Positions 21,247-52,434 of a stretch of 64,000 nt of DNA are shown piece after piece (position 1 is the first letter of the stretch; each line of letters begins with the position of its first letter). A program made the position numbers and the translations under genes. Where the stretch lies: contig OZ024741.1 in the NCBI GenBank assembly GCA_964016885.1, positions 239,878,001 to 239,942,000 on the forward strand, written 5' to 3'. The notes under the pieces are model-generated. The model had not been told where the DNA came from. It worked only from the letters and a program-made list of their open reading frames with translations, and made no database searches. The DNA is from Eledone cirrhosa (lineage: Eukaryota).

Positions 21247-21320
21247 CTATATATCTATTTCAAATATGTCTTGTAGCTTTGGTTTTAAGTCATAACTGGT
21301 ATTTATGCATGTCTTGCTCT
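21247..21320 (-). pseudogene. Protocadherin unit D terminal exon remnant
   Basis: tttcatttcag| acceptor; phase 1 gives ESKTCINTSYDLKPKLQDIFEIDI*; DNA caagacatatttgaaa resembles a frameshifted QETYLK of the paralogs. Confidence 0.6.
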
Positions 21321-21573
21321 CTGAAATGAAATATTTTAAAGTATAAATTTTAAAATTAAATCAAAATTTACTGGAAAAAGTTACAAAACAATAAACATTA
21401 TAAAAATTACTAGAAGTTTTGCATTTGAAATTTATTACATAAAGACTTTATTTAGAAATAGTAATAACATGAGATTTGAACAGAACTAGAAAATTTGTGA
21501 ATCATAATTACAAACAACAGTTATTAATAATAGCCTTAAACATCCCTACTTTCTAAAAACAATGACCACAAAC

Positions 21574-21732
21574 CTTGTGTTCTGGTTATTTCTTCAGAGT
21601 ATTTTAAGTATACTTCAGTAGAACTCTTGCTAAGATCCATTTAAGTAGACACCATATCAAACTGGTAGTTAGATGCCAAAGAACTAGAATGCTCCAGAAC
21701 ATCATCAGATGTTACATTACTTCATAAGATAT
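21574..21732 (-). pseudogene. Protocadherin unit D tail exon 1 remnant (VTSDDVLEHSSSLASNYQFDMVST*MDL...YSEEITRTQG)
   Basis: ttttcattag| acceptor and AAG|GTTTGT donor; 159 nt; homology to the VTSNDD and EEI motifs; frameshift near the 5' end and TAA at 21641-21643. Confidence 0.7.
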
Positions 21733-22000
21733 CTAATGAAAATACAGGAAAATATCAAATATTTAGTAAAAAATACTGTCTGTTTAAAAAAAAAAGATAT
21801 TTTCATTTTGTCAATTTTCCTTTGCTATTGAATATTTCAATATAAAATTTCTTTTTATAGTAACCTAATATATATATCATCATCATCATTTTTACATTTG
21901 GTATTTACTCTGCTGATTTCTATCAAACTGTTAAGCTGCAGGACATAAAGAAATGGCACTGTTTGCTTAAAAGATGTCAACATGAATATATATATATATA

Positions 22001-22435
22001 GTAGCAGAGGTACCCGGCGTTGCTCGGGTATTAAATAGCAGTTGTGTAAACCATTTATGCCAATACTTCAGTGCTGTTTCGAAAACTATACTTTTACAAA
22101 ATCATCGGCTTTTTCCAAAAGGGGGTTCCTGCCCCCAAGGGTCCCCTACTCAATATGTGCCAATTCTGTGAGTTCACATTCATCTGTAGAACACAAACGT
22201 AGCCCATGTGTCAAGTTTTGTGAAAATCGGTTGCGAAATCCAGAAGTTTTGACGTTTTGTTGCATTGCACTGCAGTGCTTCAGTCGACTCCAAGGAAGTG
22301 GTTAAAGGGGGTTATCTGCTGGGAGGCCCTATAATCAATATCTGGAAAAATGAAAGTGCCCATGACCATCCAGAGTACATAAGTAACATATGTCTTAAGT
22401 TTGGTGAAAATACTGTAGAAATGCATAAGGTTTAC
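22001..22435 (-). mobile_element. Non-autonomous Helitron (3' end clear, 5' edge approximate)
   Basis: gtagcagaggtacccggcgttgctcggg matches the 39805 terminus. Confidence 0.65.
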
Positions 22436-22927
22436 ACACATACGCGCGTGCATGTTTGTGGGTGTGTATGTATTTGTGTGTGCATATGTATGTGTATGTC
22501 CGTCGGGGCATACGTATGTACTGGCCTAAATCTTCACTATTTACTTTTACTATTTTAATAATCTGTCATTTTCGTTTTCAATTTTATTTCATCATTCTTA
22601 AACTCCGGGGCTGGAAATCATTGTTATTTTAAATAGAATATTAGTCTAACGACTCCATTTATACCATAAACTTGGTCTTGTCTTTGCATGAAATTGTTCT
22701 TCTCGGTTCACATAATGACGTATTATCCTCGCTTTTTTTCCGTTCATTACCAGGGAAGTCTTCACGAACCAAAATATTGTCTTCCTGTTTTCCTTCGGTT
22801 GCAACGTTTCTCGAAATATTTACTTCTGCGTTCACAGATTAAATTTTTTAGTTTCAGAAGATCCCGTTAATGTTGAAAGCAGCGATTCTTTGCTTAAACT
22901 TTAATCTGTTCTTATAACAAATATATA

Positions 22928-23250
22928 TCATTTCATTTTACGTCCGCTTTTCCCTGCTTGCAAGGGTGGGACGGGAACTGATTCTGGCTTGATTTCTACA
23001 GCTGGATACCCTTCCTAACACCAACCTCATTTACAGTCAGTGCTGGGTGCTTTTATGCCGTGGCACCTCCACGACCACTTTGCAGTGGAATGATAGGGAC
23101 CCCAGTCCCTATCATCTCATTTCTACAGCTGAGTAAACTGGAGCAATGTGAAATAAAGTGTCTTGCTCAAGGAAACAACACATCACCCGGTCTGAGAATT
23201 GAACTCACAACCTTTCGATTGCAAGGCCAATGCTCTAACCACTAAGACAT
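22928..23250 (-). mobile_element. tRNA-headed SINE with RTE-type 3' tail
   Basis: B-box GAGTTCAATTC; TCCTTGAGCAAGACACTT core (CORE/V-like); tail cccacccttgcaagcagggaaaagcggacg shared with RTE 3' ends; truncated twin at 54853-55062. Confidence 0.75.
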
Positions 23251-23409
23251 GTGTATGTTATATATATATAAATATGTGTGTGTGTGTATATATATATGTG
23301 TATATGTGTATATTTATATATGTGTATATCTATATATGTGTATGTATATGTCCCACCCTTGCAAGCAGGGAAAAGCGGACGTAAAATGAAATGAAATATA
23401 TATATATAT

Positions 23410-24016
23410 ATATGGACACGTGATGCGCATGAAAGTCAATAGCTGTATAACAAAGTGCAGGGCAATAAAGATAGACGGTAGCCACGGAATAGGCAGACCT
23501 AGAAAAACCTGGGACGAGCTGATAAACTCCGACCTCACACTTCTCCAAGACGATGTCACTGGACCGAGACCTTTGGCGGTACTCAGTAACAGAGAAGACC
23601 CGCCTTACCTAAATACATAGTAAAACCTACTACAGCCAGTAGGCATCTCTAACAAAATACACCCCGTTCCACCACCACCACCCCCACCCCATCCACACCA
23701 CCCCGTTCTATGTAAAGTTATGTTGGTGCCGCGCCATCCAGGCCGAAACAAATGAGATCGTGTAGGTGTCACGACAAAAAAACACACAGTCCACGCTGTA
23801 ATGTGGCCGTGTAGGCAACACGGTAAAAACCTCCCAGACCCACACTGTAAATGTGGTTGGTGTTAGGAAGGGCATCCAACTGTAGAAAACCTGCCAGACA
23901 GTCCTATGCGAGCAAAACAATCACTCTTGCCTCAAGTGGGACTACCCCCGTCCAAACCCATGCAAGCGTGGAACACGGACGTTAAACGTTGATGATGATG
24001 ATGATGATGATGATGA
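23410..24016 (+). mobile_element. RTE LINE 3' end, nearly identical to 61690-62290
   Basis: GHVMRMKVNSCITKCRAIKIDGSHGIGRPRKTW, 3' UTR and (GAT)n. Confidence 0.88.
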
Positions 24017-24018
24017 TA

Positions 24019-25704
24019 TATATTGTTATACTTGGGGAGGGTCATATTTGTGTAATATTGCCAGAATTAATAACAGAACACACTCACTGTTTAGTTGGTT
24101 TTCGCTTCTGTGTCTTTTATATCGGTAATCTAATTTATTCGGTCCTCAATGTTGCCATTGACTGACCGACGGTCAAAAATAATACAGATACAATATAGAC
24201 ACAAACACATATATATAGTTTATCAAAGTTCTTTCGTTGTACATCTGCAACATCGTCAGTGGTGCTATTGTTTCCTCCCGTTACATTGTATGTCTACGCC
24301 ATTTTTATTTAGTCTGTCTATATATTTATTTATTTGTTTGTTTGTTTGTTTATTTTTTTATTTTGTCTTCTTTGCGCATGCGTTTGCGTGTGTATAGTGT
24401 TTTGTTTGATGTGTGTTCGTGATTGTATTCTATGTATTCTATCTTTACTAGTGTGTGTTTATGTGTTTGTTGTTATTGTGCTTGTGTATGTATTTATTTA
24501 TTTATCTATTTATTTATACTTCTCTTAGGTCAGTGTTGTTTGTTTGGGTGTTGTTGTTATTCCATTCATTCTTTCTGTTTAGTATTGGCCTTCTAAGTTC
24601 TATTTCACTGGCCTCTCTGATTTGCCTATCTGCTGGGTCATTTCTATGTTTAGATATTATTCTAATTTCTATGTTGTCTATGTTACCGTCGTGTTGTTGT
24701 CTGGCATGTTCGTATAGTACTGACCCGTTTTTTCGTCCTTTTAGTTCCCCCCAGTGTTGGTCTATCCTTTCACCTATACTACGAGCTGTCTCGCCTATGT
24801 ATGTTGTTGTCATGTTTCTGCAAGTACCCTCTGTATATCTTATGCTATAGACTAAGTTTCTAGTTTTACAGTTTATCCGGGGGTTTACCTTACATATGAT
24901 ACATTTCCTATTAGTACAGTGGGTTTTCTTAAAAGGGTAGGTTTTGCTGATCAGGGATTTTATGGTGGTTCCTGGCTTTTCTACCACCTTAATCTTTAAG
25001 TGGGTCTTTCTCAGGGCCTTTCTACACTGGTTAGCTAATTTCCCTCCAGGGGTAGCGTCCACAAACATGACACTTTGGTATCTCTGGTTGTTGTACCATG
25101 AGGTGGCTTTCCCTATCTTATGTCTAGCCCTATCTAAGCTATTCCATGATTTGCTCCTGTATAATGGGCAAATTCCTTTCATGTCCAGTTCTATGAGGGT
25201 CTTATACTTCTCCATGGCTCCTTCGTATACTCTGACTCTGACTCTTTGGTTGTAGCCAGAGAACTGCATGCGGTTGATGAAGTGTTGGATGTGTCGTTCC
25301 ATTTCTGTTGGGTTGCACATGCGGGACACATTCTTCATCACTCGTACCAAATCTGCGATCAGAATATTAAACTTAGCACTACTGGACATTGCTGAGTTTT
25401 TGAGTATCAGGTATTTGGAGGCCATGGGTTTAGCATAGTGTGAGTGGAGAATTTGGTTTCTCTCGACTATAGTGTTAATCCAGAGTTCCGTGTCTAATAC
25501 AGGTAGTCTATTGTTAGGGTGTTTGGAAGGGAAGTCGATAGTTACAGTTATACTCTGGTGTATGGAATTAGCTATCTGCTGGATGCTTTCCATTGTGCTA
25601 CGTTCTAAATCAAACTTGTTAGTGCTCTCTAGTGGGGATGTTCTTATAACTATATTGATATCGTCTATGTAACGCGAGTACATGATGAGGTCTATGGAGC
25701 TCTC

Positions 25705-25705
<1 letters not shown>
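24019..25705 (-). mobile_element. Penelope-like retroelement, 5'-truncated (RT C-terminus + GIY-YIG endonuclease)
   Basis: ORF 24514..25683 has RYIDDI, LPVLD, CKTRNLVYSI...TYIGETARSIGERIDQH and RQIREA..I...RPILNRKNEW. Confidence 0.88.
24222..24263 (-). ncRNA. Minimal hammerhead motif in the Penelope 3' terminal region
   Basis: Minus strand reads acca CTGACGA t gttg-cagatgta-caac GAAA gaac TT tgat; homologous motif at 17891-17933. Confidence 0.55.
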
Positions 25706-25739
<34 letters not shown>

Positions 25740-25740
25740 G

Positions 25741-25775
<35 letters not shown>

Positions 25776-25866
25776 GTATATATGTGTATGTATATGTATA
25801 TATGTGTATATATATATATATATGTATATATAGAAGAAATTAAAAGATCGTTAAAAAAGTTCTATA

Positions 25867-25937
25867 TATTTTATAATGAGCATTTCAAAAACAAATATCA
25901 TCCTGGGACGATAATTGCGTTCTCATCAGATAAAATA
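25867..25937 (-). ncRNA. Hammerhead ribozyme, diverged copy of the 44010 family
   Basis: Minus strand reads tattttat CTGATGA gaacgcaatt...ttgttttt GAAA tgctca TT ataaaata. Confidence 0.65.
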
Positions 25938-26149
25938 CATATGATGCCTAAAAACACTTGTCAACATATGACAAAAAAATATAAAAGGAGAGAAGATTGG
26001 AAAAAAGAAGGAAGAGGGAAAAGGAAAAAGACATAAAAGAGAAGGGGAAAATAACGGAGGAAAAATTAAGTATATATGTATATATATATGCGTGCGTATG
26101 TGTGTGTGTGTCTGTGTGTGAATGTAGCTAAGATAATACGACAGCAATA

Positions 26150-26388
26150 ACGTTATGTAGACAGCCAGGCATACAGACAGATATTATAAGAGCGCAACCG
26201 AGATGGATAAGCGGCGCCTAACACCCTTTAACAACAGAAAATTGAAAAAAAATAGTGGCAGTTAATATCTTTTGACCGTAAGGAATATATAAATGCAAGT
26301 TTGAAGTCAATTGGAGTAGAAATGTGGATTTGTATAGACTTTGCAAAAATGAGGACACACTGACAACATCAGTTTTATATATAGAGAT
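26150..26388 (-). mobile_element. Helitron 5' portion (39805 family)
   Basis: gacagccaggcatacagacagatattataag and cagttttatatataga are shared with 40030-40384. Confidence 0.6.
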
Positions 26389-26555
26389 TACAAAGAGAAG
26401 ATTTAATGAACTGAAAATTATAACTGACACTTTTATATTTGCATTCAAAATTAATTTTCCTTATATGAAAAATCTTTTTCAGGAAAAAAAAAAAAATCTA
26501 TATTCTAAATGAAAATAATTCTAGAATTTAGTCACTATATTGTTATATAATGGAT

Positions 26556-29500
26556 CATCATCATCATCGTTTAACGTCCATCTTCCACGCTAGCATGGGT
26601 CTGGATGGGAATTGTCCCACTTGAGGCAAGATTGGTTGTCTTGCTCAAAACTGTCTGGCGGGTTGTCTACGGCTGGATGCCCTTCCTAACATCAACCACG
26701 TTTACAGTGTGGACTGGGAGGTTTTTACCGTGTTACCTACACGGCCACATTACAGCGTGGACCGTGTGTTTTTTTTGTTGTGATACCTACACGACCTCAT
26801 TTATTTAGAACTGGATGTTGTGGTACCAACATAGCTTTACATTGAAAGGGGTGGTGTAGATGGTGGTGGGGTAGGGGTAGTGGGACGGGGGTGTATTTTG
26901 GTTAAGAGGTACCTACTGACTGTAGGTTTCGCTTTGTACTTAGGCAAGGCAGGTCTTCTGTATTACTGCGTAGCGCCAAAGATCTCGGTCCAGTGACATT
27001 GTCTTGGAGAGGTGTAAGTGTGTGAGGTCGGAATTTATCAAGTCATCCCAGGTTTTTCTGGGTCTGCCTACTCCGTAGCTACTGTCTATTTTGATCGCCC
27101 TGCACTTTGTTATACAGCTGTCGTCTTTCATGCGCATCACGTGGCCATACCAACGTAGTCTTCTCTCGAGTAAACAGCATCTGATCCCTCTTATTCCTAA
27201 TTTCTCCCTTAGTTCATTTATGCTTTGCCGTTCAAGTATATTACTATTACACATCCAACGGAGCATGCAAGCTTCGTTCCTCTCAAGTGTGCGTATATCC
27301 TCAGCACACAAGGCCCATGTCTGACTGCCATGTAACATCGCTGTTCGTATGCAGGCATCATACAGCCTGCCTTTCATTTTTAGAGAGAAACCTTTAGACG
27401 CCAATAGTGGTATAAGCTCGCTGAACTTTTTCCATCCCGTTCTGACTCTAGCTACAGTACTTTCGGAGCACCCTCCACCACTGCTGATTTTGTCACCCAG
27501 GTAACGGAAGGTGTCCACTATTTCTATAGAACCATCTTGGCAATGGAATGAGCTAGTATCCTGTGGGCATGTGCTGCTACTTAATGCACCTGAGCACCGG
27601 CCACATATAAAATCTATATTCTTAGTTAGCTTACCTGTGATCCCACTACATCTTTTATGCACCCATACTTTGCATTTGGGACATAAAATGGAGTTTCTGC
27701 CTACTCCTTTCCTACACACTGAGCATGGCCACTTCCCAGATGGGACCAGTGCTCTATTTTCCTTCCTACATATTAGAACTTTAGTCTTAGGCAAGTTAAT
27801 TTTAAGGCCTTTTGATTCTAGGCCATGCTTCCATGTTTGGAATTTCTTCTCTAGTTCAACTATTGATTCAGCTATGAGCGTTAGATCATCTGTGTATAGA
27901 AGTTCACATGGGCAGCCGGTCTTGAACTCCTCTGTTATAGCCTGGAGAGCGATAATAAATAGGAGCCCTGATGAACAACTTTTATGCTAAAGTCTTCACT
28001 ATATTCGTTGTTAATTCTAACTTTGCTGACTGTTTCATTATACATGGCTTCTATAGCTCTCACAAGCCATTCATCAACACCTAGTTTTCTGAGAGCCCAC
28101 CAGATAATGGAACGGGGGACTCTGTCAAAGGCTTTCTCCAAGTCAACGAAAGCTAAGTATAGGGGTTTACTTTTAGCTAGGTACTTCTCCTGTAGTTGTC
28201 GTACAATGAAAAGAGCATCTGTGGTACTGTTACCTGACACAAACCCGAACTGCATTTCATCTAGATCAATTCATTCTCTGATTAGTTGCGCTATTACTTT
28301 TTCTGTGACCTTCATGACCTGGTCGATTAATTTAATGCCTCTATAGTTTCCCCTATCTAGGGCATCTCCTTTACCCTTGTAGCAGTTAATGATGATGCTG
28401 CTACGCCAGTCCTTTGGTACAACCCCATTCTGTGACTTGGTTTACTATTCAGCATTTCAGCAACTATTTCCGAAGGCCCAGCTGCCTTGCCTGTCTTCAT
28501 ATCTTTGATTGCCTTACTTATTATACTACCTTCAACTTGCACTGCTGGTCCCTCTATTGGATCGATGTGGAGGAGACTGTCTTTCTCCCATTTATTCTCA
28601 TTTAGTAGCCTTTCGAAGTGACACTTCCAATCTACCTTCTTATCAGCGTCAGTGATCGCAAGTACACCATCACCATTACGGACACACTTCTCTCCGACAA
28701 TATCACGGTTTTCCTTGACACATTGCCTAGCAATCCTGAACACCTCACGTTTTTGGTCCTCGCGTTGTAGAACATGCTTGAACTTTCTTTCCTCTGCTTC
28801 CCTTCTTGCGAAGTACACTTCTCTCTTAGCTTCCCTCCTGGCCACTTGATAGTCTTCTCTTCTTCCCGCAATACTTTCCAAGCCTGCTTTTTGGCCTTGA
28901 TCGACTCCTCCACCTTACTGTTCCACCACCAAGTTACTCTCCTCCTGCCTATAGGTCTGCTCCAGCCACAGATTTCATCTGTCGCCTTCAGCAGGTTAGC
29001 TTTCAGGAATTCCCACTGTTCCTCTATATTGTACGACTCTAATTGCTCTTCCTTACTGTCAAAAGCATCAAGTAATATGCTTTTAAATTTATTACTGGCT
29101 GTGGGGTCCGTTAACTTCCATATTTTTCTCCTAAGGATAGTCCTCCTCTGTTGTCGAGTACGTCTCGTCCTGACTATGAGGTCGCTAACTGTGAGGCTAT
29201 GTTGTGAGGTGCATTCTTCATGGGGGAGGGATTTAGTGTTTACAACAGACACTCTGTCACGTCTTCTGGTAAGGATATAATCTATTTGACTGGCGTGTTC
29301 CCCTGATCTATAGGTGATCAAGTGATTGTCTCGTTTTTTAAAGTTTGTGTTACAGATCATCATCATCGTCATCTTCGTTTAATGTCCATTTTCCATGCTA
29401 GCATGGGTTAGACGGGAGTTGTCCCACTTGAGGCAAGGTTGGTTGGGTGACCGTGTCTTGCTCATATAGGACTATCTGGCAGGTTTTCTACGGCTGGATG

Positions 29501-31500
29501 CCCTTCCTAACACCAACCACATTTAAGTGTGGAACTGGGAACTTTTACCGTGTTACCTACATGGCCACATTACAGTGTGGACTGTGTTTTTTTTTCTCGT
29601 GTCACCTACACGATCTCGATCTCATTATCTCATTTATTTGGACTGGATGTTGTGGTACCAACTTTACAGAGAGAGGGTCGTGTTGGCGGGAGTGGGAGGA
29701 TAGGGTAGGGGCAGTGGATTGGGGTGTATATTTGGTTAAGAGGTGCCTACTGACTGTAGGTTTCGCTTTGTACATAGGCAAGGCGGGTCTTCTGTATTAC
29801 TGCATAGCGCCAAAGATCTCAGTCCAGAGACATTGTCTTGGAGAGGTGTAAGTGTGTAAGGTCGGAATTTATCAAATCATCCCAGGTTTTTCTGGATCTA
29901 TCTACTCCGTAACTACCATTAATTTTGATCGCCCTGCACTTTTTTATACAGCTGTCGTCTTTCATGCACATCACGTGGCCATACCAACGTAGTCTTCTCT
30001 CAAGTAAACAGCATCTGATCCCTCTTATTCCTAATTTCTCACTTAGTTCATTTATGCTTTGCCGTTCACGTATATTACTATTATACATCCAACGGAGCAT
30101 GCATGCTTCATTCCTTTCCAGTCTATGCAGGTCCTCTGCACGTGTTGCCCATGTCTCACTGCCATGTAGCATTGCTGTTCGTATACAAGAATCATACAAT
30201 CTGTCTTTCATTTTTGAGTTAGGTTATTTGCGTCTCAGAATTCCAGGATTCTGGAGTCTCCCTCATTTCTAGTACCAAACCCATAGCCTCCATGGATTCC
30301 ATCATAGCCGTCACAGTGTTGTCCAACGTGACCATTTAGGTCGCCAGCAATAATTATATAGTCAGTGTTGGTTAGTTGGGAGGTAATGAGCATTAACGAC
30401 TCATAGAATTTGTCTTTTATAATGCCAGGCAGTCCGGATTGGGGTGCATACGCAGATATTATTGTCACAGTAGTTCTATTGAGGACAAGTCTTATTTTAA
30501 TTATTCTGTCGTTCACTCAATTTACGTCTATTATCTTATCTACCCATTTTTCTGCTAGCATGATTCCTACTCCACCCAGCCCATTGTCATTTCCCACCCA
30601 GAAAAGCTTATAGTATCGTTTTTTACCCACCCCTCCACCTGGTCTCTTGAATACAGCAAACATCAACCTCCTTACGTTCAAGCATCTCTACAACCTCATT
30701 AGAGTGACCTTTTAAGGTGCCTACATTCATGGTACCAACTCTGAAGTTTTGGATTGCCTTTGGTGGGTGGGAAGGATGGGGCGCAGGGAGGGGTGAGGGA
30801 GATGGGGTTATGTTAGCCATCCGCGGCCGAAATAAAGAGGAGTCCTTGCATTGTCGTCTGGCAGCATGAGGTGAATTTGTCTTTATCTTTGGCATTGTCA
30901 CTGAGTGCCCAGATTTTTCAGACTATTCAGAATTCCGTAGTCCATCCATCATATCGAAAGGCAACCAGGTCTAAACTTAAGAAGTGATAATATAGGCCGC
31001 TAGATTATGATTGGTCCAAATAATAATGGTGGCGAGTGGGGGCGGGGCGGAGGGTTCTGGGGTAGTTAGCGAGAAGGTTATAAAATAAAATCCTCGAAAT
31101 TTGGCCATAATCGAACGAGCATATAACTGTAATAAGAGAAGAATTATGGGATTTTAAAATACAAGAAGATTATTTTGAACGATCAGACAGAATTGCCGAA
31201 TAGCATTGAAAAAGAAAAGATTGGATTCTGGACGATATGATACAGATAGATAAATGGACTGGGGAACATGGAGAGACGAGAAAAATAGGATTTGTACATT
31301 ACATTACACAGAAGAGCGAGCGAGCGAGCGATGTAGCCAAGAATAAAGGGTCGACAAATTCTGAGTTTCGTACCCCGCAACAAGTTTATTTTATATTTGA
31401 AGAGAGAGGGGATGGGATTGTGAGAGAGACAGCAGGTGCGTATACGATGTATGGTGGTGGTGGTGGTGGTGGTGGTGGTGGTGGGAGGGGGGGGGGGGGG
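26556..31500 (-). mobile_element. Near full-length RTE-clade LINE (APE endonuclease, RT, PHD finger), decayed; 5' edge approximate
   Basis: RVGTMNVGTLKG..CCIQETRW, ISAYAPQ, AGDLNGHVG, SQIDYIL, QFGF, AFVDLEKAFDRVP, C4HC3 finger, MLHGSQTW, RRLRWYGHV; (GAT)n tail at 26556. Confidence 0.9.
29357..30215 (-). mobile_element. 5'-truncated RTE copy nested in the endonuclease region of the same family
   Basis: Has its own (GAT)n tail and 3' UTR plus ORF 29819..30211; the host reading NNLT|ICNTNFKK is split around it. Confidence 0.85.
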
Positions 31501-31859
31501 TGAAGAATAGTAGGGAGCAGGAAGGTTATTTTATAAAATCTTAGAATTTCGAACATTATATTTAAATATTTAAAAAGTACTTGAAAATTTGTCTGATCAA
31601 ACTGTTATACATTGAATATTTAAGATTATTCTTTTATCTTTCATATTATTTATTAAAAGTTATATTTCTGAATATGTCAATGTGAAACCAAGAATGATAA
31701 TTTTGTTGCTATCTGGTATATTATGATTTTGTCTGCATTTAAAAAATGAATGGGCTAATATTTCCTAGGTATCAAATTGTAATTTTTTATTTTTCATTTC
31801 CATGTTTCCATATCAAACGCATCATAAGAACGTGATGACTGAAAGTATGTTTCTTTTTT

Positions 31860-31938
31860 CTATAAATGCTTTACGTATGTTTCTTGGCTAGGATCTTTTC
31901 CAGAGTAGAATTGTTGTAAATTTTGAAGGTACCACTTC
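31860..31938 (-). pseudogene. Protocadherin A terminal exon, frameshifted (ancestral frame ...DPSQETYVKHL*)
   Basis: atatttcag|GAAGTGGT acceptor; homologous to 42368-42447 but one A short in the run at 31896-31899; lies downstream of the exon-2 stop. Confidence 0.75.
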
Positions 31939-34338: not shown

Positions 34339-34504
34339 CCAAAATTTCATGTATTTCCTTATAATCTTGTAGTTTTCCTTCCTTTAATGTATGGATGCTG
34401 CCCCTCTAAGTGGAGAGTGTTTCAGATGGGTAGTTAGAAACAAAAGTAGCATTAGCTTCTAAAGCATCATCATTAGAAGTTACTACAACTGGTTGACTGT
34501 TTTT
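34339..34504 (-). CDS. Protocadherin A tail exon 1 with in-frame TAG (KNSQPVVVTSNDDALEA...TLST*RGS...YKEIHEILG)
   Basis: ttttcaaacag| acceptor and TGG|GTAAGT donor; 166 nt, phase 0 to 1; stop at 34406-34408; clear paralog of 45406-45565. Confidence 0.85.
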
Positions 34505-34651: not shown

Positions 34652-36928
34652 CAATGAAGGTTTAGGAATGGTTCTGCTTTGGTTAGCAACAGGATTGTTA
34701 GACTGATACAACAATTGTTTCATCTCTGTTCTACCTTGGTATGCTGTAGTGTTTGTTGTAGTAGCTGTGTTATCTCTGTGTTTAATATATTTCATTATAC
34801 ACAGTGTTATAGAAACAATAGCCACTGATACTATTACTGCTGATGATACAATGATAATAACCCTTGTCATATGGACTGTATCTGAAGATTGTAAAGGTTT
34901 TTTTGTCTCATCACTAACAGCCAATACCAAAGTCACACTAGTTGTTGATGACTGAACTGGACTACCACTGTCTTTTACAACAAACTTTAGTTCATAACTT
35001 CCAGTATCATTTAGATAAACTTGTCTGGAGAATGATAAAGCACCACTGGTTGAGTTCATAGTAAACAACTGTGTATCATTTCCTTGTATGATTCCGTATG
35101 TGAGCAAAGCATTGATTCCACTGTCACCATCAAATGCTCTCAAAACTGTGATGTCACTCTTACTCTGGGGATGGTAGTTGACATTTAGGGTGTAAGGGTC
35201 AACACTAGGAAAGGTGAAATATGGAACATTGTCATTTTGATCGAAAATCTCAACAACAACATTAGCTGTATCATTCAGAGATGGACTTCCATTATCTTTG
35301 ACAAAAACTTCAAATTTATACACATCTTGTTTCTCTCTGTCTAATGACATGGTGGCTGAAATAAAGCCATAACTGGTGATCTGAAATGGTAGATTTGATT
35401 TTTCTTTATGTATCAGAGAATATATGAGTTGTCCAGCAGATCTAAGGTCAGGGTCAGTGGCACTGACAAAACCAATAGGGAAGTCTTTATCTTTGTTTTC
35501 ATAGGTCAGGAATTGGAATGTATCTTTGGTAAACTGTGGTTGTACATCATTGATATCAGTCACTTGGATAGAGAGAGTTTTAACACTTTTAAGAGGTGGT
35601 AATCCTTTATCTTGACATGAGACAGGAATGTTATAGTGTCCTTGTGTTTCTCTGTCTACTGGTTTGTTTAGAACTATTTTATATTCTTTAGATCCCATTG
35701 ACTGTAGTTTGAATGTATCATGTTTGATATCACAGCTGACCTCTCCATTTTGTCCAACATCATTGTCAGTGACTATCACATAAGCAATGAAACTACCAAC
35801 TTTAATATCTTCAGAAATGGTAGCTGTGTTGTCATTGATAGCAGAAACATAATCTATATCAATAGATGGAGGGTTGTTGTGTTGGTTTATAACATTTACC
35901 AGAACTGTTGCTATGGAACTGAGTGGAGGGTTGTCTCCTTCTCTAGCTTCTATAAACAGCTCATATACTGTCTTTTCATCCAATTTAGAATATTTAGTAA
36001 AAAATATTTCTCCAGTGTTTTTATTTAAATCAAAATATCTTTTTGATTGGCTAGAGGTTTTCGGGCTGAAATGGTAGGTAATGTTGCCATTTTCTCCAGA
36101 ATAAATGTCTGTCACTGATATAACTACAACTGGTTTCATTTTGTCATAATCTGTTCCGAGGGAAATATTATAAAGAGATTTAGTGAACAAATATTTATCA
36201 TTTACATCTTTGTCATTTAGAATATTGTCATTTACATCTTTTACAGAGATTAGAACATCCAAAGAACTCTCTTTAGGAGGAGATCCTCCATCTGTAGCTA
36301 TAACCTGGGCATTATAACTATCTCTTGCTTCCTTATCTAAGGATTTTTCTAGAACAATTCTTAATGACGATATGCCATCTGCTCTTTTAGAAACTGACAA
36401 AGAAAATGTTTCATCATGATTATTTTGAAGCTTGTATTTAATAAATGAGTTTTGGAATCCTACATCTCTATCTATGGCATTTGGTATTGATATCTTAAAA
36501 CCTTCTCCATCACTTTCTGAAAACTGAATACTAACTTTTTTAACAGGGAACTCAGGTTGATGGTCATTGATGTCTTTTATAATAACCTTTATTTTAAGTA
36601 TTTTTGTAAATGATTTTGTTTTACGCACAACTTTAATATATCTATAACATTCTTTGTTATATATACAAAGTGACTCTGCATCAAGTTTTTGAACAGTGTA
36701 TACTTTTCCTCCTTGGGTGACATTAAATAGTTGAGTAAATTTACGTTTTAGTTGATTGAATGTTATTAATTGTTGTTTGGAAGATTCAATGTTATCCAAG
36801 AGTTTTGAGTCTGCAGCAATGTCTGCTACATAAGTTCCTGGACTTCTCTCTTCTTCAACCTGATAGGTAAGGTCTATGGCATGATATTTTTGTAGGAAAA
36901 ATATTATGAAGGATAATGATAGGAACAT
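34652..36928 (-). CDS. Protocadherin A, large coding exon (signal, 6 EC, TM)
   Basis: ORF 34553..36964 with the same motifs as B. Acceptor ttttcattacag| gives exon edge 36981, ATG at 36928 (MFLSLSFIIFFL), donor TTG|GTAAGA at 34652. Confidence 0.93.
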
Positions 36929-37303
36929 CTTGCTTGCAGTTGTGATAATGATGAAAGGGGTCAATTTATCAAGAATATTACCTGTAATGAAAACAAAACA
37001 ATGTTAGACTATAACATTTTTTTCATTCTCAAGAAATATAAAAGAAAATGCAATTGTAAGCTTTAAGCTTGTTTATTTTACAGCAACTGAAAACCTCATG
37101 CTAAATTGTTGTCAACACTTTCTCAGATAAATACATTCTAGGGATTAATGAGTATGAGCATTATCTGAGCCAAATCTACCCTCAGAAATTTTGTTTAGAA
37201 ATATTGTTGTTGTATGACTTATCTAAGCTTAATTATTCTGTCACAGGGTATGTAAGAGAATAATTAAACTTAAACAAGTCATAGGTAACACAACAGTAAT
37301 AAT

Positions 37304-41419: not shown

Positions 41420-41560
41420 TTTAATCATAAAATTAGATTTTTGTAACTTGAAATAAACCAGTCAACTGTAACTACTACTGCTGTTATGTCTCTGCTGGTG
41501 CTGTAACAACAGCTCTTTGGTGATAAACTAGATGAGGAGCCTGCTGCAACATTTAATTTG
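41420..41560 (-). other. Candidate non-coding first exon of PcdhA (5' edge unknown)
   Basis: AAA|GTAAGT donor at 41420, 948 nt past the B stop; TG-rich sequence upstream. Confidence 0.4.
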
Positions 41561-42264
41561 GTTACGTATGGGTGTGTCTGTGTGTATGCATATTATATAA
41601 GCAATATCAAATTTAACTTGAGGGGTGGATAAGTGTGTTTGTATATATATTTATATATATATAGAGAGAGTTATACCCTGAATTAAATGCTCTTGTTTTT
41701 CATCCACTCATATTTGTTATTAAAATGCATCTTCAGGTTTTCACGTATTTAACTATATAATAGCAATAACATTTGCCAATATAGTCAGAATACTTGATAA
41801 TCTTATAGAATTCTCTTTTTCAATAATATAAAAATAATCATACTACAAAAACTTGCTTTAAAAATATGACCTACTTAGTAGTTTGAGAGACATCAAAATG
41901 ACAAAATTGGAGCAACAAAAATAGTAGAGTGATGGAGTAAATTCCCTTTAGTTTCAACTTTTCATGTTCTGAGTTCAAATCCTAGAGTAGATTTTGTCTT
42001 TCATTTTTCCAGTGTGGATAACATAATAGTCTGTAATGTACTAAGGTTGTTTTATTCAACTATACTCTTTCCTTACAAATATGTAGCTTTCTTCTAACTA
42101 TTATTGTTATTATTACAACACACTGATTTAATAGAAAACATTTAACTGTCAGACTGACATTTTTTACTGAAGGAAGATTTAACTTCATTCAAATTATCTA
42201 ACATATAAATATGAAGCAGTTATGTTAGAAAGCTATTTCTGAAGAGAATTAATAAATAAAAATG

Positions 42265-42296
<32 letters not shown>

Positions 42297-42367: not shown

Positions 42368-42447
42368 TTATGCGTGTTTTAGGTAGGTTTCCTGGCTCTG
42401 ATCTTTTTTCAAAGTACAATCTTCATTGTTCTTGTACGTACTGTTTC
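42368..42447 (-). CDS. Protocadherin B terminal coding exon (GNSTYKNNEDCTLKKDQSQETYLKHA*)
   Basis: ttttctacatttcag| acceptor; phase-1 frame runs open to TAA; 80 nt, same length and ETYxKHA* end as the paralogous exon 51638-51717. Confidence 0.82.
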
Positions 42448-43322: not shown

Positions 43323-43594
43323 TTTAATTTTTTATTATGAATTAAACTTCATTGTCAGAGACAGTGTGCAACAGCTGTATCAGGATACAAACCATTGATC
43401 TTTTTAGCCAGAATTTTAAGATTGTTTTCATAAAGAAATTTGCAATCCCCAATAATATATTACGAAAATACTTTTAATTTATGGTAGCAAACACATTTTC
43501 TTCTTAGTTAAGTTAAAGTACATTTAATCATCAATTATAACATTTAAAACAGAATAGGCAATATTTGAACAAATAAATATATATAAACACACAC

Positions 43595-43635
<41 letters not shown>

Positions 43636-43725
43636 TATGTAGGAGGTGAGTTTTATTGTAGCACAATAAAGCAATGCAAATATCGAATAACTAGCACTCA
43701 ACAGTTTATAGAACTGGAGTATAAA

Positions 43726-44117: not shown

Positions 44118-44143
44118 TATATAAATATATATATATATATATT

Positions 44144-45115: not shown

Positions 45116-45118
45116 TAA

Positions 45119-45159
<41 letters not shown>

Positions 45160-45405
45160 TGTGTGTATTGAATAATGAAAATAAAACAAAAGTCTAAGAC
45201 AGGCTCTTAATTAGTTCATTGAGTTCTAATGTTATAGACCCCACAATATACAGGTAGATATCAATATATTATTAAACATTAAACAGAAAAATAAGAAACG
45301 TCTAACACTAGTATCATATCTAAAATTTACTTTCTATTTAAAATTTTTTCAATAATTAGTCTAAATCATAAGAACTATTTTGATTTAGATATTATTATTA
45401 ATTAC

Positions 45406-45565
45406 CTGACATGTCTGGTATTTCTTCATAATGTTTCATATTTCCTACACTCAATCCATGTCCATTATTTTGTGAAGATAATGTGTTTGTTGGATATGTT
45501 GATGTCAGACTAGTTGCTTCAACAGCATCATCATTAGATGTCACCACAACTGGTTGACTGTACTT
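45406..45565 (-). CDS. Protocadherin B cytoplasmic tail exon 1 (KYSQPVVVTSNDDAVEA...KHYEEIPDMS)
   Basis: ctttctatacag| acceptor and CAG|GTAAT donor; 160 nt, phase 0 to 1, open frame; paralogous to 34339-34504, 52282-52434 and 21574-21732. Confidence 0.88.
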
Positions 45566-45680
45566 CTGTATAGAAAGTAAAGTAAAATAAAACGAATTGA
45601 ATATTGCCGCTTTATATGAAGTTTAAAACTCTTTTCTTACCAGATGTTCAATAAAATGCACAGTATTTGAATTAATTAAT

Positions 45681-45866
45681 TGTTTCTACTTTTGGCACAA
45701 GGCCAGCAATTACCCAGTGCATTACTGGTACTTTATTTTATCGACCCCATAAGGATGAAAGGCAAAGTTAACCTCGGCGGGATTTGAACTCAGAATGGCA
45801 AGGCCGTAACTCTATGCGTCAAAGCATTGTGCCCGATCTTCTACCGATACTGCCAATCCACCGCCC
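45681..45866 (-). mobile_element. Same SINE family, in PcdhB intron
   Basis: 17-bp TSD tatttgaattaattaat at 45664-45680 and 45867-45883. Confidence 0.85.
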
Positions 45867-46119
45867 TATTTGAATTAATTAATGAAGAATTTCAAGTGAT
45901 TTTTGTAACAGAGCAAAATGTTGTTATATAAGATTATGCTGGAAGGTGTTGACTTGAATAGGAACTCTTGAAATGGGCAGCTGTGTTATTAAAGGCAGTT
46001 TGTGGTAGGCTGGTATCAAAAGGGATGACTAAAATGAAATTAGTAATATAAACAAGCACACAAGAGGTTTTGCAGTCTCTAAATTTAAATACATAAGTAT
46101 AAAATATTTTACAACTTAC

Positions 46120-48516
46120 TGCAGTTGGTTTTGGTAAAGTTCTTGACTGAACTGAAGCTTCATATTTATTCTGTAGCTGACCTTCTGAATAACATTCACT
46201 CTTTGATCTCTCAGAATATATATTTCTTTTTATCATCTCTTCTGTATTCCTTGACATAGCAACAGGATTGTTAGACTGATACAACAATTGTTTCATCTCT
46301 GTTCTACCTTGGTATGCTGTAGTGTTTGTTGTAGTAGCTGTGTTATCTCTGTGTTTAATACATTTCATTATACACAGTGTTATAGAAACAACAATAGCCA
46401 CTGATACTATTACTGCTGATGATACAATGATAATAACCCATGTCATATGGACTCTACCTGAAGATTGTATAGGTACACTTTTCAACATTGGTGATGTCTC
46501 ATTACTAACAGCCAATACCAAAGTCACACTAGTTGTTGATGACTGAACTGGACTACCACTGTCTTTTACAACAAACTTTAGTTCATAACTTCCAGCATCA
46601 TTTAGATAAACTTGTCTGGAGAAGGATAAAGCACCACTGTGTGAGTTCATAGTAAACAACTGTTTATTATTTCCTTGTATAATTCCATATGTGAGGAAAG
46701 CATTGTTTCCACTGTCACCATCAGATGCTCTCAAAACTGTGATGTCACTCTTACTCTGGGGATGGTAGTGAACATTTAGGGTGTAAGGGTCAACACTAGG
46801 AAAGGTGAAATATGGGACATTGTCATTTTGATCTAAAATCTCAACAACAACATTGGCTGTGTCATTCAGAGATGGACTTCCATTATCTTTGACAAAAACC
46901 TCAAATTTATACACATCTTGTTTCTCTCTGTCTAATGACATGGTGGCTGAAATAAAGCCATAACTGGTAATCAGAAATGGTAGATTTGATTTTTCTTTAT
47001 GAATCAGAGAATATGTGAGTTGTCCAGCAGATCCAAGGTCAGGGTCAGTGGCATTGACAAAACCAATAGGGAAGTCTTTATCTTTGTTTTCATAGGTCAG
47101 GAATTGGAATGTATCTTTTGTAAGCTGTGGTTGTACATCATTGATATCAGTCACTTGGATAGAGAGAGTTTTAACACTTTTAAGAGGAGGTAATCCTTTA
47201 TCTTGACATGAGACAGAAATGTTATAGTGTCCTTGTGTTTCTCTGTCTACTGGTTTATTTAGAACTATTTTATATTCTTTAGATCCCATTGACTGTAGTT
47301 TGAATGTATCATGTTTGATATCACAGCTGACCTCTCCATTTTGTCCAACATCATTGTCAGTGACCATCACATAAGCAATGAAACTACCAACTTTAATATC
47401 TTCAGAAATGGTAGCTGTGTTGTCATTGATAGCAGAAACATAATCTATATCAATAGATGGAGGGTTGTTGTGTTGGTTGATAACATTTACCAGAACTGTT
47501 GCTATGGAACTGAGTGGAGGGTTGCCTCCATCTCTAGCTTCTATAAACAGCTCATATACTGTCTTTTCATCCAATTTAGAATATTTAGTTGAAAATATTT
47601 CTCCAGTGTTTTTATTTAAATTAAAATATCTCTTTGATTGGCTAGAGGTTTTCGGGCTGAAATGGTAGGTAATGTTGCCATTGGGTCCTGAATCTTTGTC
47701 TGTTACTATCAAAGCAAGAATAGACTTTGTTATGTCATGTGTGGTTCTAATGGAAATATTATAAAGTGGTTGTGAAAATACAGGTGGATTATCATTCTCA
47801 TCTTTCACTACAATCAGAACATTTAACACACATTGTTTAGATGGGGAACCCCCATCTTTAGCAATAACTTCTAAATTGTATTTCTCTTTTATCTCTCTGT
47901 CTAATTTATCTTTTAAAACAATCTTTAATGAGGAAATACCATCAGCTCTTTTAGAAACTGACAGAGAAAATAAATCATCAGATTTTTTAAATTTATATTC
48001 AATAAAAGAATTTTTGAAACTAATATCTTTGTCTATGGCATTTGGGATTGATTTCTTCAAACCTCTTCCACCTATTTCCTCAAATTGTAAAGTGATTTGT
48101 TTTTCTGAAAATTCTGGCTCATGGTCGTTAATGTCTTCTATTACTATTTTGATTTTTAATATTTTTGTAAATGATTTTGTTTTCCGAACAACAATTTTAA
48201 TAGTTCTAGAACATTCTTTGTTATATATACAAAGCGATTCTGCATCTAGTGTCTGAGCAGTGTATAGTTTTCCTGTTTTGGTGACATTAAAATACTGTGT
48301 TAATTTTCTTGTTAGTTGACTAAATGTTACCATTTGCTGTTTAGATGGTTTAACATTGTCTAACAACTTAGAATCAGCAGCAATATCTGCAACATATGTT
48401 CCTGGACTTCTCTCTTCTTCTATATGATAAGTTAGATCTATGCTGCAGCATGTGTGAAACACTGACAAGATGATATATAGTGTGAACCACATAATTATAT
48501 TTGGTTTTTGCAACAT
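46120..48516 (-). CDS. Protocadherin B, large coding exon (signal peptide, 6 cadherin repeats, TM helix, juxtamembrane)
   Basis: ORF 45934..48561. EC1 C-x5-C (LCIYNKEC); linkers DINDHEP, DENDNPP, NQHNNPP, DINDVQP, DQNDNVP; LDRE/VDRE motifs; hydrophobic TM VIIIVSSAVIVSVAIVVSITLCI. Acceptor ttcttgcag| gives exon edge 48547, first ATG at 48516, donor GCA|GTAAGT at 46120 (phase 0). Confidence 0.95.
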
Positions 48517-48773
48517 TTCACAATTATCCGAATAGTTATAATTTAACCTGCAAGAACACAAAAAAAACTTTTGTGAAAATATGAACTGGATAACAACATC
48601 AAAACAAAGGAGGAATCTCCTTAAGACCGCTGTAATTCTTTATCGATAGTTTCTGATAATGTATTTTACTGAGAAACATTTTGAAAACTCTGTGTGTGTG
48701 TGTTTGTGTCTATGCTTGTATACACATGCATGTATGTCTGTGTAGTAGGAGTAGGAATAATAATAATAATAAT

Positions 48774-49013
48774 TAGGCGCACTAGGTACTATCTCAAAGA
48801 GTTTCCAAGGATGGTTAAAGAAAATTGGTCCTGCCCCGCTTTTTGGAACACTTCAAAAGGCATGCTTGCTGGGAACAGCAAGAACCCTCCGATACGTCCC
48901 GAATATCTGAGGCTGCAGGTAGTGGCTTGATATTCATTTCAACAAACTTTCCAGTTAAATAACATCAATGACTGAGACTCAAAGAACAATAATAATAATA
49001 ATAATAATAATAA
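48774..49013 (+). mobile_element. R4/Dong-type (RLE) non-LTR 3' end within an (AAT)n microsatellite
   Basis: Translates IGALGTISK..LQKACLLGTARTLR; flanked on both sides by (AAT)n. Confidence 0.7.
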
Positions 49014-49323
49014 TTGGTGAGAAATAGCTCAGAGGACAATTATAATGAAAACAATGTTTACCATAATTCTATAATGAAAATATTACTAGAAAAAAAACAA
49101 AACAAAAAGAAAAGCTGTAAATTGAAGGAAATATAATATAATGTGTTTAATTAAATTGGGAAAGAAAGATTACCATGAGGGTTTATTGATTTATATTTGT
49201 TTTTAATTTCAGAAAATATAGTAAATAATCTGGTAAATTTATAATGATATATTGATTATTGGTATCATCTTTACATTATTGTTTTGTTAAGAATGACACA
49301 CATATATATATATATATCTGCTA

Positions 49324-49364
<41 letters not shown>

Positions 49365-50093
49365 AAAATTATGTTAAATGTTATTTGTCAAAACAAGAAA
49401 ATCCTTTTTTTCTTTAACTTAAACATTAAATGTAAAATTAATACTACTTAATGAAGATGATGATGATCATTATAATTATAGTAATGTAATTATAAAGGCT
49501 CTATTATTCTTTTTTACTAACATTTACAGACGAATACTCCTTATATGCTGACATTTTAAATTCTCTTTAGCCTGCTATGAATTCTCTCTGACACAAATCA
49601 TAGAAAATCAAAGAACTTCAGCTTCATTTACCCCTAGTTAGCATACAGCTTCAGTTCTTGTTTTCAGTCACATATTATTTTTATTATTTTATTATTTCTA
49701 CACCATTCATCTTTTACTTTCACACATATTCCATATTAATAAACTGAAATTTATATAAAACAGTGACATAATTTAGTAACTAATAGATATCTATAGAGAT
49801 TGTATAATAGCAATAGTATTATTTCTTTTTCTTTTCTTTTATTAGAATAATTTATTCAGTTGGGTGTGAAAATATTCAAAATTTAATCTAAAGCAACATT
49901 TAAGGTCTTAACTACTATAAGCGTAACAAACAATGTATTTAATGGAGAGAAATATGTCTACTCCACTAGCTAATCACTGTTTCCTTTCAGCTTTTCATTA
50001 GGTTGAGAGATTTTTTTCGATAGCATATGTTAAAAAATAAACAATGAAAATTAGCACAAAGAAAACAACAAACAAAAAATATCATAATCTTAC

Positions 50094-50180
50094 CTTAACC
50101 TTTAATACCATTGATATTTAATGTAATAAGGATATGCCTATTTTGTTACAGTTGAAAGGTCCATATTGTAGCTGCTGCTG

Positions 50181-50190
<10 letters not shown>
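50094..50190 (-). other. Candidate non-coding first exon of PcdhB (5' edge unknown)
   Basis: AAG|GTAAGA donor at 50094, 1.5 kb past the unit C stop and upstream of the B acceptor; adjacent (TG)n. The large exon starts at an acceptor, so an upstream exon is required. Confidence 0.45.
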
Positions 50191-50234
<44 letters not shown>

Positions 50235-50241
50235 GTGCGTG

Positions 50242-50280
<39 letters not shown>
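50186..50280. repeat. (TG)n microsatellite in the putative PcdhB promoter
   Basis: Direct inspection. Confidence 0.95.
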
Positions 50281-50281
<1 letters not shown>

Positions 50282-51637
50282 TAATAGCTGTATATTGATG
50301 GACTGGAGCTGTGAGTCAGTATGAACACCTATGCCTATCCCAATACCTCTCAGTCATTGTGTTTATGTGTATGCAAATGTAAACATGGATTTACATATTT
50401 ATAGATGTATAATATGCTTGGATGAGTTTTTCCATTTCCCTTGCTTTCACTCAAGTCCAGAACTCTAATTTACAGGATATTTATTTAAGATTTTTATCAA
50501 AAAAAATTTGCCTATTATGTACAACTAGTCAGTTAGGTAGTCTTAGAGAACGTATAATGTGTAAACATGTAAAAGGCTCCTTGAATGTTTATATAGATTG
50601 AAATTTCATTACAGATTATAGAAAAACAAAGTAAAAACTGAAAATATACCTAACTGAAATTATTTTGATCTGCATAATTGTACTTTAAAATTGAAAAAAA
50701 AAAAATATATATATTTTACTTTATTATTTATAAAATCTTTACAGTTATAATATTAAAGGCTATTAATATGCTTCATAATGTAAATAACCAGGGATTGATA
50801 TGTAATTCTTGTTTTTGCTTTATGCAGGTTTTTAATGGTTGATCTATACATCATTAAAATATGCACAATGTTTGATTTTATATATATATATATACTATGA
50901 CATAATTTCATGTTTTTAATTCTATTATTTCCTTACTATTTAATAAAATATTAACTTCAACAATCCCGAATATTAAAAAAACAAAACAGATTTTTAAACA
51001 AAAAATTTTTGAACTTCAGTTAATAAATGTTAGCTATGAAATTGCTAAAACTTTAACTTCTCTATGCTTCCAAAACAACCCAAAAATATTCACATAGTTT
51101 CAGACATTTTTCTTTACAAAATTAGCAAATGCAGCAATTAAAATGAATATGTAAACTATTTTCATAACTAGACATTCAATCTGGAAAATCTTTTTTAAGA
51201 TAAGGTTTCACATAAACTTCATAGAATTATCTTTTCTAAAAGAAATTATAATATTTTATATTAATATGTTCTTCCCAAATTGAATTCTTTAAAAATATTT
51301 CTAAAAAGAAGATATGACTTCAAGTTATTTTATTTCTTATAGATAATCTTGAAATAATACATACAATAACTATATTGTTGAAAAAAGAAGTGTGAACCCA
51401 GATACTTTAAAAAATAGTTTTCTAAACCGTTTTAATAATGTGTTTAATCTGAAGGATTTAAAATACACTTTTTGTAGTAGATTTTCTATGTAAAAGACAA
51501 ATTTAAGATATAATCCCAAAATATGATAACAGTAAAAATACTGATGACAGTAGATATTTAGTTATGATTTGTTTTTGTTAAGGTTGATATTTGATGTTGA
51601 CAGAAAAATTAAGTATGGATGAATATGTTGGTTATTG

Positions 51638-51717
51638 TTAAGCATGTTTCATATAGGTTTCATGGAGATGGTTCTTTTCTATAGTATTTTCTGCATTGGT
51701 TTGGCATGTATTATCTC
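51638..51717 (-). CDS. Protocadherin unit C terminal exon (GDNTCQTNAENTIEKNHLHETYMKHA*)
   Basis: ctgttttag| acceptor; 80 nt; phase-1 frame intact and ending ETYMKHA*. Confidence 0.78.
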
Positions 51718-52281
51718 CTAAAACAGATAGAGTAAACTAATTTAATATATAGAAAGAAGAGAAAAATATTTTAAAGATAATTGTTAAGAATCTATTACAA
51801 CAATTGTGCTATGACTTATTTAAACTGCCCAAAACAAATGCCAACATTGGTTAAAAATAAATTATTTGAAATTAGGAAGAACCAGAAAACTAATTTTTAA
51901 ATTTCTTTTTATGATCTCCCTATTTATGCCTATAAATATGTCAACCTTCCCCATACTAGTGCCATGATAAATTGCACCCAGTGCACTCTGTAAAGTGGTT
52001 GGTATTAGGAAAGGTATCAAACTATAGAAACCATGTCAAAACAGAACATATTGAGTGAGACATGGTCCACTGAACCATTTAGGACAGTAACTCTGATGAA
52101 GTACTACAGACTTGGGCTGTCCAACCCATGTCAGAATGGAAAAGCAGGTGTAAAAGAAGGAGGGTGAAATATACTTGAAAGGTTTCAAGGAATAATCATT
52201 AAGATAAATGCACTTAGATTAGCAAAATAAATAAAGTTATTTAATGTACTTATATTGTCACAAAAAAAAATCTAATTTTAC

Positions 52282-52434
52282 CTGATATTCCAGGTATTTC
52301 TTCATGTTTTGAATCCCTTCTACTCCACCACTTTTCTGAAAGGATAGCATGTTGAGCTGAGAATTTAACAGAGGAATTGTGCTGTCTTCCAAACTATCAT
52401 AATTAGATGAGACCGCAACTGATTGACTGCATTT
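52282..52434 (-). pseudogene. Protocadherin unit C tail exon 1 (KCSQSVAVSSNYDSLED...HEEIPGIS), 1 nt short
   Basis: ttcttttgattag| acceptor and CAG|GTAAAA donor; paralogous to the B exon; 153 nt rather than 3n+1; frame restored by one more A at 52307-52310 (real frameshift or homopolymer error). Confidence 0.78.

What the first reader, a model, noticed from the sequence alone, without database searches (positions are those of the whole stretch)
21247..52434. 'Headless' protocadherin units: tail-exon cassettes with no ectodomain exon
Seen: four paralogous two-exon tail cassettes (C, B, A, D) but only two ectodomain exons. D's upstream space (21733-31859) is bounded by A's last exon and holds essentially only TEs, so D has no head of its own. 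C has none in the 11.5 kb upstream, whereas A and B have theirs within 150-560 nt. Splice sites of the orphan exons are still recognisable. Inference: either repeated TE-associated deletion of the ~2.4-kb ectodomain exon (birth-and-death), or spare tails that upstream ectodomain exons can splice to. All large-exon donors and tail acceptors are phase 0, so they are interchangeable; this would invert the vertebrate many-heads/one-tail logic.
Basis: partly seen in the sequence, partly recalled or inferred. Interest (0 to 1): 0.75.

Follow-up and report, generated by a model that had tools for sequence, protein, structure and literature searches.

The report
Headless protocadherin pseudogenes in an octopod
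At the end of a tandem array of brain-wiring protocadherin genes, two copies lack their large adhesion exon and carry frameshifted tail exons, so they are likely ordinary dying duplicates rather than spare tails that neighbouring genes can swap in.

Summary
Observation confirmed and extended: the window has four tail cassettes and two ectodomain exons. The next ectodomain exon beyond the window (E) has its own tail, so C and D are truly headless, with no head remnant. Tail swapping is not supported. Of 36 tail-1 exons in 664 kb, 34 follow their own head; a second array pairs 44 of 44. Both orphan tail-1 exons are frameshifted, versus 0 of 33 headed ones measured; D is closed in all three frames within 7 codons. 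One likely-RNA contig splices C's own 5' leader exon, 16.6 kb upstream, straight onto C's tail: a gene unit minus its head. An Octopus sinensis gene model holds a head fragment at C's position, and E and B keep the same head-tail pairing in Octopus vulgaris and Argonauta. A also has a broken tail. Best reading: birth-and-death at array edges. A 70-codon by-product ORF in the C transcript is untested, and D's transcription was not tested.

The parts
52282..52434 (-). C tail exon 1 (orphan): 153 nt, frameshifted near its 3' end; acceptor joined in a likely-RNA contig to C's leader exon outside the window (donor at continued coordinate 69075, L001:5075)
51478..51717 (-). C last exon (family-frame stop at 51640-51638; length preserved; contig cover to 51478), spliced to C1 across a 564-nt GT-AG intron
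   Evidence: tail-2 model without C: E 0.002
52435..64000 (.). window part of C's 16.6-kb leader-to-tail intron where a head exon would lie; LINE fragments and other repeats, no cadherin remnant
50094..50189 (-). probable 5' leader exon of B (weak model hit; B's acceptor carries 120 other letters in a contig, not identified directly)
46120..48547 (-). B ectodomain/TM exon, 799 codons from ATG 48516, phase-0 donor; orthologue of O. vulgaris CAI9733503.1
45406..45565 (-). B tail exon 1, intact, 46 of 54 aligned residues identical to the closest Octopus tail
42368..42447 (-). B tail exon 2, coding part, intact
41420..42183 (-). A leader exon (possibly continuous with B's 3' UTR), spliced to A's head in a likely-RNA contig
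34652..36981 (-). A ectodomain/TM exon, 759 codons from ATG 36928, open; no 1:1 orthologue among fetched proteins (best 65% in the N-terminal part)
34339..34504 (-). A tail exon 1 with in-frame TAG at codon 33
31860..31938 (-). A tail exon 2 with a 1-nt deletion against paralogues
21733..31859 (.). space upstream of D: repeats (LINE/RT fragments, SINE-like elements, microsatellites), no head remnant, no leader exon
21574..21732 (-). D tail exon 1 (orphan): 159 nt, net 7-nt deletion at its start, stop within 7 codons in all three frames
21247..21320 (-). possible D tail exon 2 relic (AG acceptor at a plausible place; homology not statistically detected)

Best explanation
C and D are likely decaying duplicates of whole protocadherin genes that lost the large ectodomain exon, sitting at the 3' edge of a tandem array in which every intact gene has its own leader, head and two tail exons. 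Shown: both lack any head sequence, both tail-1 exons are frameshifted, D is closed in all frames, and C keeps a leader exon that is spliced directly to its tail in one contig of a run that behaves as RNA. Inferred: units arose by tandem whole-gene duplication; the array core is kept uniform by gene conversion or unequal crossing-over while edge units fall out and decay; C's head was deleted from inside the gene, leaving leader and splice sites, so the spliceosome joins the nearest remaining sites; D also lost its leader and is further gone; A, with a stop in tail exon 1 and a frameshifted exon 2, is probably an earlier stage or a short-tailed gene. The deletion mechanism (recombination between repeats versus other deletion) is not resolved.
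For: No head remnant upstream of C or D. E has its own tail. 34 of 36 tail-1 exons in 664 kb and 44 of 44 in a further 460 kb follow their own head. 33 of 33 headed tail-1 exons measured are 3n+1, 2 of 2 orphans are 3n (the 30 array copies are near-identical, so they count as about one type). Second-codon-position changes from the family consensus: orphans 26 of 79 versus four headed types 20 of 163, Fisher p=2e-4; third positions equal, 17 of 65 versus 31 of 133, p=0.72. X24 contig of 837 nt: 51716<-52281 GT-AG joint, and C1's acceptor continues into 30 letters with a single exact match, at 69075, a GTAAGT donor. That exon shares a motif (28 nt, 89%) with the leader that precedes the array heads. 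O. sinensis model XP_036365284.1 has a ~135-residue head fragment with three private substitutions between the E-type and B-type genes. The 5'-most unit of both arrays has a truncated head, 968 nt with small deletions and 627 nt. Albertin et al. 2022 (PMC9068888, passages read) report fragmentary, possibly pseudogenic protocadherin frames in cephalopod clusters and diversity by full gene duplication.
Against: C is still spliced at both tail exons, its last exon keeps family length and frame, and leader+C1+C2 holds a 70-codon ORF. The direct position-2:position-3 ratio test is not significant (p=0.06). No annotated gene lies between E and B by accession order in O. vulgaris or Argonauta, so C may have been headless or broken for a long time, which makes retained splicing less trivial. 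The RNA evidence is one contig (depth 7.5) from one run whose type is not on record; contigs drop rare variants. The O. sinensis fragment comes from a fused, partly garbled gene model; its DNA was not seen and it shows no C tail. D was not examined with reads.
Confidence: 0.85

Rival explanations
1. Spare tails: upstream heads splice to C or D as regulated alternative 3' ends, inverting the vertebrate many-heads/one-tail design.
For: Head donors and the C1 acceptor are phase 0 and C1's acceptor is used. Distance is no barrier: the gene 50 kb downstream has a 34-kb head-to-tail intron. Head-to-C would give an open tail ending in the last exon.
Against: D1 stops within 7 codons in every frame; C1's frameshift destroys the conserved HYEEIP motif and the frame of exon 2. 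The X24 contig runs unbranched from leader into C1 (weak, one run). None of 222 fetched proteins has a C- or D-type tail (best 15 of 35 and 14 of 42 identical, versus 46 of 54 for B and 42 of 48 for E).
Confidence: 0.04
2. C has been co-opted: the headless transcript makes a 70-residue soluble tail-derived peptide or works as a regulatory RNA.
For: Spliced leader-C1-C2 contig; an ATG 21 nt before the leader donor is in frame with C1. An ATG at the same place exists in the leader of the downstream gene and starts O. vulgaris model CAI9733500.1.
Against: In the intact downstream gene that ATG opens a short upstream ORF that stops before the real start, so the fusion follows automatically from deleting the head. 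Eleven other ATGs precede it in the reconstruction, which assumes the 444 upstream letters are contiguous. C1 has drifted at second codon positions (11 of 40). No matching protein among 222 fetched.
Confidence: 0.07
3. Assembly error dropped the near-identical head exons of C and D.
For: Heads are 94-100% identical over most of their 3' half, which invites collapse. DNA support across 52.5-69 kb and across D was not tested.
Against: No N in the window or the next 200 kb. DNA runs match the C1 region without differences. The leader-to-C1 splice and the decay of both tails are independent of the assembly of the gap. No trace even of the divergent 5' half of a head.
Confidence: 0.04

Closest known systems
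Coleoid cephalopod tandem protocadherin arrays (Albertin et al. 2022, PMC9068888; Styfhals et al. 2019, PMC6339937; passages read)
   Same: Head-to-tail, multi-exon, whole-gene duplicates in one orientation, very similar copies, with fragmentary frames that may be pseudogenes. E, B and the downstream gene have orthologues in O. vulgaris, O. sinensis and Argonauta in the same inferred order.
   Different: The passages I read do not describe tail-only relics or a leader-to-tail spliced transcript; supplements were not read.
Vertebrate clustered protocadherins alpha/gamma (Wu and Jia review, PMC7811963, passages read)
   Same: One large exon encodes signal peptide, six cadherin repeats, TM and juxtamembrane part; small downstream exons encode the tail; 3' halves of heads look homogenised.
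   Different: No shared constant exons: every head has its own tail, and a separate leader exon precedes each head. Vertebrate Pcdh-beta genes are heads without tails; C and D are the reverse but broken.
Transcribed unprocessed pseudogene in a birth-and-death gene family (general knowledge, recalled)
   Same: Internal exon loss, frameshifts, relaxed constraint, residual transcription and splicing.
   Different: Nothing essential; whether C's RNA has a role is untested.

Membership tests
Cephalopod clustered protocadherin (B, A, E and array genes) | Cadherin_2 N-terminal domain plus cadherin repeats and TM in one large exon | tested here: met
   Pfam Cadherin E 6e-74 (B), 4e-66 (A), Cadherin_2 in both; 87-90% identity to Octopus and Argonauta protocadherins over residues 560-799 of B
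Cephalopod clustered protocadherin (B, A, E and array genes) | Tandem whole-gene copies in one orientation, each with its own tail | tested here: met
   34 of 36 and 44 of 44 tail-1 exons follow their own head, all minus strand
Functional protocadherin gene (C, D) | Ectodomain exon present | tested here: not met
   tblastn and blastn of three heads found no remnant
Functional protocadherin gene (C, D) | Tail exon 1 in the family frame (3n+1, open) | tested here: not met
   C1 153 nt, D1 159 nt with stops in all frames
Shared or alternative constant exons (vertebrate-like or inverted) | Heads spliced to a tail other than their own | tested here: inconclusive
Shared or alternative constant exons (vertebrate-like or inverted) | Extra tails under coding constraint | tested here: not met
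   Frameshifts and flat codon-position changes; no like tail in 222 proteins
Unprocessed pseudogene | Intron-containing relic in place, with disabling lesions | tested here: met
   C: leader, two introns, head missing, frameshift; D: head and leader missing, frameshift, stops
Unprocessed pseudogene | No functional product | not testable with these tools
   Needs ribosome profiling, proteomics or perturbation

The most novel reading that the evidence does not exclude
Loss of the ectodomain exon turned C into a stably expressed headless gene: a conserved leader ATG is fused in frame to the tail and makes a 70-residue soluble tail fragment, or C serves as a minor alternative 3' end for upstream heads, modulating protocadherin signalling in octopod neurons.
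Probability: 0.08. Interest if true: 0.6.

Novelty: new member of a known kind. Interest (0 to 1): 0.24.

Why it matters
As it stands, a clean example of how cephalopod protocadherin arrays turn over: uniform cores, broken edge units, and a full unit plan (leader, head, two tail exons) that helps annotation and avoids miscounting. It agrees with the published view that cephalopods diversify protocadherins by whole-gene duplication. It would matter more only if head-to-C junctions or the 70-residue product were shown.

Tried and rejected
E's head as C's missing head: rejected, E has its own tail. Close paralogues of C1 or D1 elsewhere in the genome: DNA searches returned only the exons themselves (near-identity searches). 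Run search: no holder on record as RNA was listed; X24 is taken as RNA only from its GT-AG joints and empty introns. (19.9 kb) was swamped by repeats, with thousands of joints not shown, so it cannot exclude B-to-A-tail or other cross junctions; parts without cover are no evidence. Run X1 (another organism) gave only head pieces among the rows shown. TE enrichment as cause of deletion: not distinguishable from controls. A and D as sister copies because their stops share a column: identity 0.56, no higher than other pairs with D (0.51-0.59), so not supported; stop readthrough or editing was not tested. D2 homology: not detected. In one search the downstream gene's tail was cut one base short, which does not shift the aligned columns. 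The 441-codon ORF at 25839-24517 gave no Pfam hit. Albertin 2015 was not held, nothing read. Four paper searches listed nothing on tail-only relics in cephalopods by title or abstract start; subscription papers such as Wang and Ragsdale 2017, and supplements, were not seen. PMC9795677 passages added only tandem duplication. Earlier-findings look-ups returned nothing.
Full report
Setting. The window is G000:C2:239878001-239942000 of a 3.0-Gb genome. Its two long minus-strand ORFs are protocadherin ectodomain exons (Pfam), 87-90% identical over B's residues 560-799 to Octopus and Argonauta proteins, so the organism is inferred to be an octopod. Coordinates outside 1-64000 below continue the window's numbering along the contig.

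Observation. The window holds heads B (48547-46120) and A (36981-34652) and four tail-1 exons: C 52434-52282, B 45565-45406, A 34504-34339, D 21732-21574. A nucleotide model built without C and D finds them at E 3e-17 and 3e-7 in 664 kb. tblastn and blastn with three heads find no remnant in 21733-31859 or 52435-70100. D's second exon is only a candidate; a tail-2 model does not detect it.

Context. Upstream lies an array of 30 near-identical units (29 whole heads, one truncated). Of 36 tail-1 exons found at E<1e-5 in 664 kb, 34 follow their own head; C and D are the two exceptions. A second array downstream alternates strictly, 44 tails and 44 heads, plus one 120-nt head fragment. In both arrays the 5'-most unit has a truncated head (968 nt with several small deletions; 627 nt). 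Each whole array head is preceded by a conserved leader exon (29 in the array, plus E, A, a weak hit for B, and the gene at -48.6 kb). Heads are 64-84% identical between B, A and the array in the first kilobase and 94-100% over alignment positions 1201-2200, the pattern expected from gene conversion (inference).

The tails are not interchangeable. All 33 headed tail-1 exons measured are 3n+1 long; C1 and D1 are 3n. The 30 array copies are nearly identical, so this is about four independent types against two. C1 reads open from phase 0 but shifts frame before the conserved HYEEIP motif and would read exon 2 out of frame. D1 stops within 7 codons in all three frames. Against the consensus of headed types, orphans differ at 26 of 79 second codon positions versus 20 of 163 for headed types (Fisher p=2e-4), with equal third-position change (p=0.72); the direct ratio test gives p=0.06. 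A's tail is also broken: TAG at codon 33 of exon 1 and a 1-nt deletion in exon 2, although A's head is open and spliced to its leader.

Transcript evidence. No holder on record as RNA was listed, but run X24 behaves as RNA. One 837-nt contig (depth 7.5) covers C1 and C2 exactly, joined across a 564-nt GT-AG intron, and continues beyond C1's acceptor into letters whose only match in 664 kb ends at 69075, a GTAAGT donor 16.6 kb upstream. That exon carries the leader motif. C is therefore leader + missing head + two tail exons, and the leader is spliced to the first acceptor left. No head-to-C junction appeared, but this is one contig from one run and contigs drop rare forms. DNA runs match the C1 region without differences.

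Relatives. E, B and the downstream gene have orthologues with the same head-tail pairing (E: 92% N-terminal identity and 42 of 48 tail residues to O. vulgaris CAI9733504.1; B: 85% to CAI9733503.1, 46 of 54 to the closest tail); none of 222 fetched proteins has a C- or D-type tail. The fused O. sinensis model XP_036365284.1 runs array units, E-type gene, a ~135-residue head fragment with three substitutions not in its six other copies, then the B-type gene: a head relic at C's position, by inference from a flawed gene model. Accession order leaves no annotated gene between E and B in O. vulgaris or Argonauta.

The 70-codon ORF. An ATG 21 nt before C's leader donor is in frame with C1. The same ATG position in the intact downstream gene opens a short upstream ORF that ends before the true start. 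Deleting the head would fuse such an upstream ORF to the tail automatically, so the ORF needs no selection to explain it; translation is untested.

Mechanism. Shown: missing heads, frameshifts, leader-to-tail splice. Inferred: whole-gene tandem duplication, homogenised cores, decay of edge units, internal deletion of C's head, further loss in D. Not shown: a role of transposons; repeat cover is 0.41 for C's intron and 0.64 upstream of D against 0.05-0.97 in nine other intervals.

Known systems. Albertin et al. 2022 (PMC9068888; passages read) state that cephalopods diversify protocadherins by full gene duplication rather than by splicing to shared exons, and note fragmentary frames that may be pseudogenes. 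The vertebrate design is as in PMC7811963 (passages read). Four searches listed no description of tail-only relics, but subscription papers and supplements were not seen.

Verdict. Real feature, ordinary cause: pseudogene relics of a birth-and-death family (0.85). Tail swapping 0.04, co-opted headless product 0.07, assembly error 0.04. Interest 0.24.

Noticed in passing
window 42183-41420 and L001:5075-5518: Leader exons start within a few hundred bases of the upstream gene's stop; A's contig begins 185 nt after B's stop, so leaders may overlap the neighbour's 3' UTR or reflect read-through splicing into the next gene.
   Followed up: partly
window 34408-34406 and D1 (21732-21574): A1 (TAG) and D1 (TAA) have a stop in the same alignment column and both stay open in the family frame for 22 codons after it; coincidence, shared origin or readthrough is unresolved.
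   Followed up: partly
window 36240-36180: A's head has a short tandem duplication that replaces the usual NPPVF after the DxND linker motif, and lacks about 40 juxtamembrane residues present in B.
   Followed up: no
G000:C2:240231748-240232719 and 239672508-239673134: The 5'-most unit of each of two arrays has a 5'-truncated head with a tail-1 exon still present.
   Followed up: partly
continued coordinates 46-354 kb: 3' halves of heads are 94-100% identical across divergent paralogues while 5' halves differ, and the homogenised part differs from that of Octopus and Argonauta orthologues: concerted evolution sparing the N-terminal repeats.
   Followed up: partly
G000:C2:239827049-239792868: The gene 50 kb downstream of the window has a 34-kb intron between head and tail exon 1 and its stop at the end of that exon, as in its Octopus orthologues.
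   Followed up: partly
window 45095-43720: Helitron fragment (Pfam Helitron_like_N, E 1e-34) followed by a 146-nt inverted repeat inside B's last intron.
   Followed up: no
window 25839-24517: 441-codon stop-free frame with no Pfam hit; a YIGET motif suggests a Penelope-like retroelement (recalled, untested).
   Followed up: partly
continued coordinates 214989, 100400; 329478, 320223, 312387, 303915: Short duplicated pieces of tail exon 1 and short matches to the head's 3' part inside array spacers.
   Followed up: no
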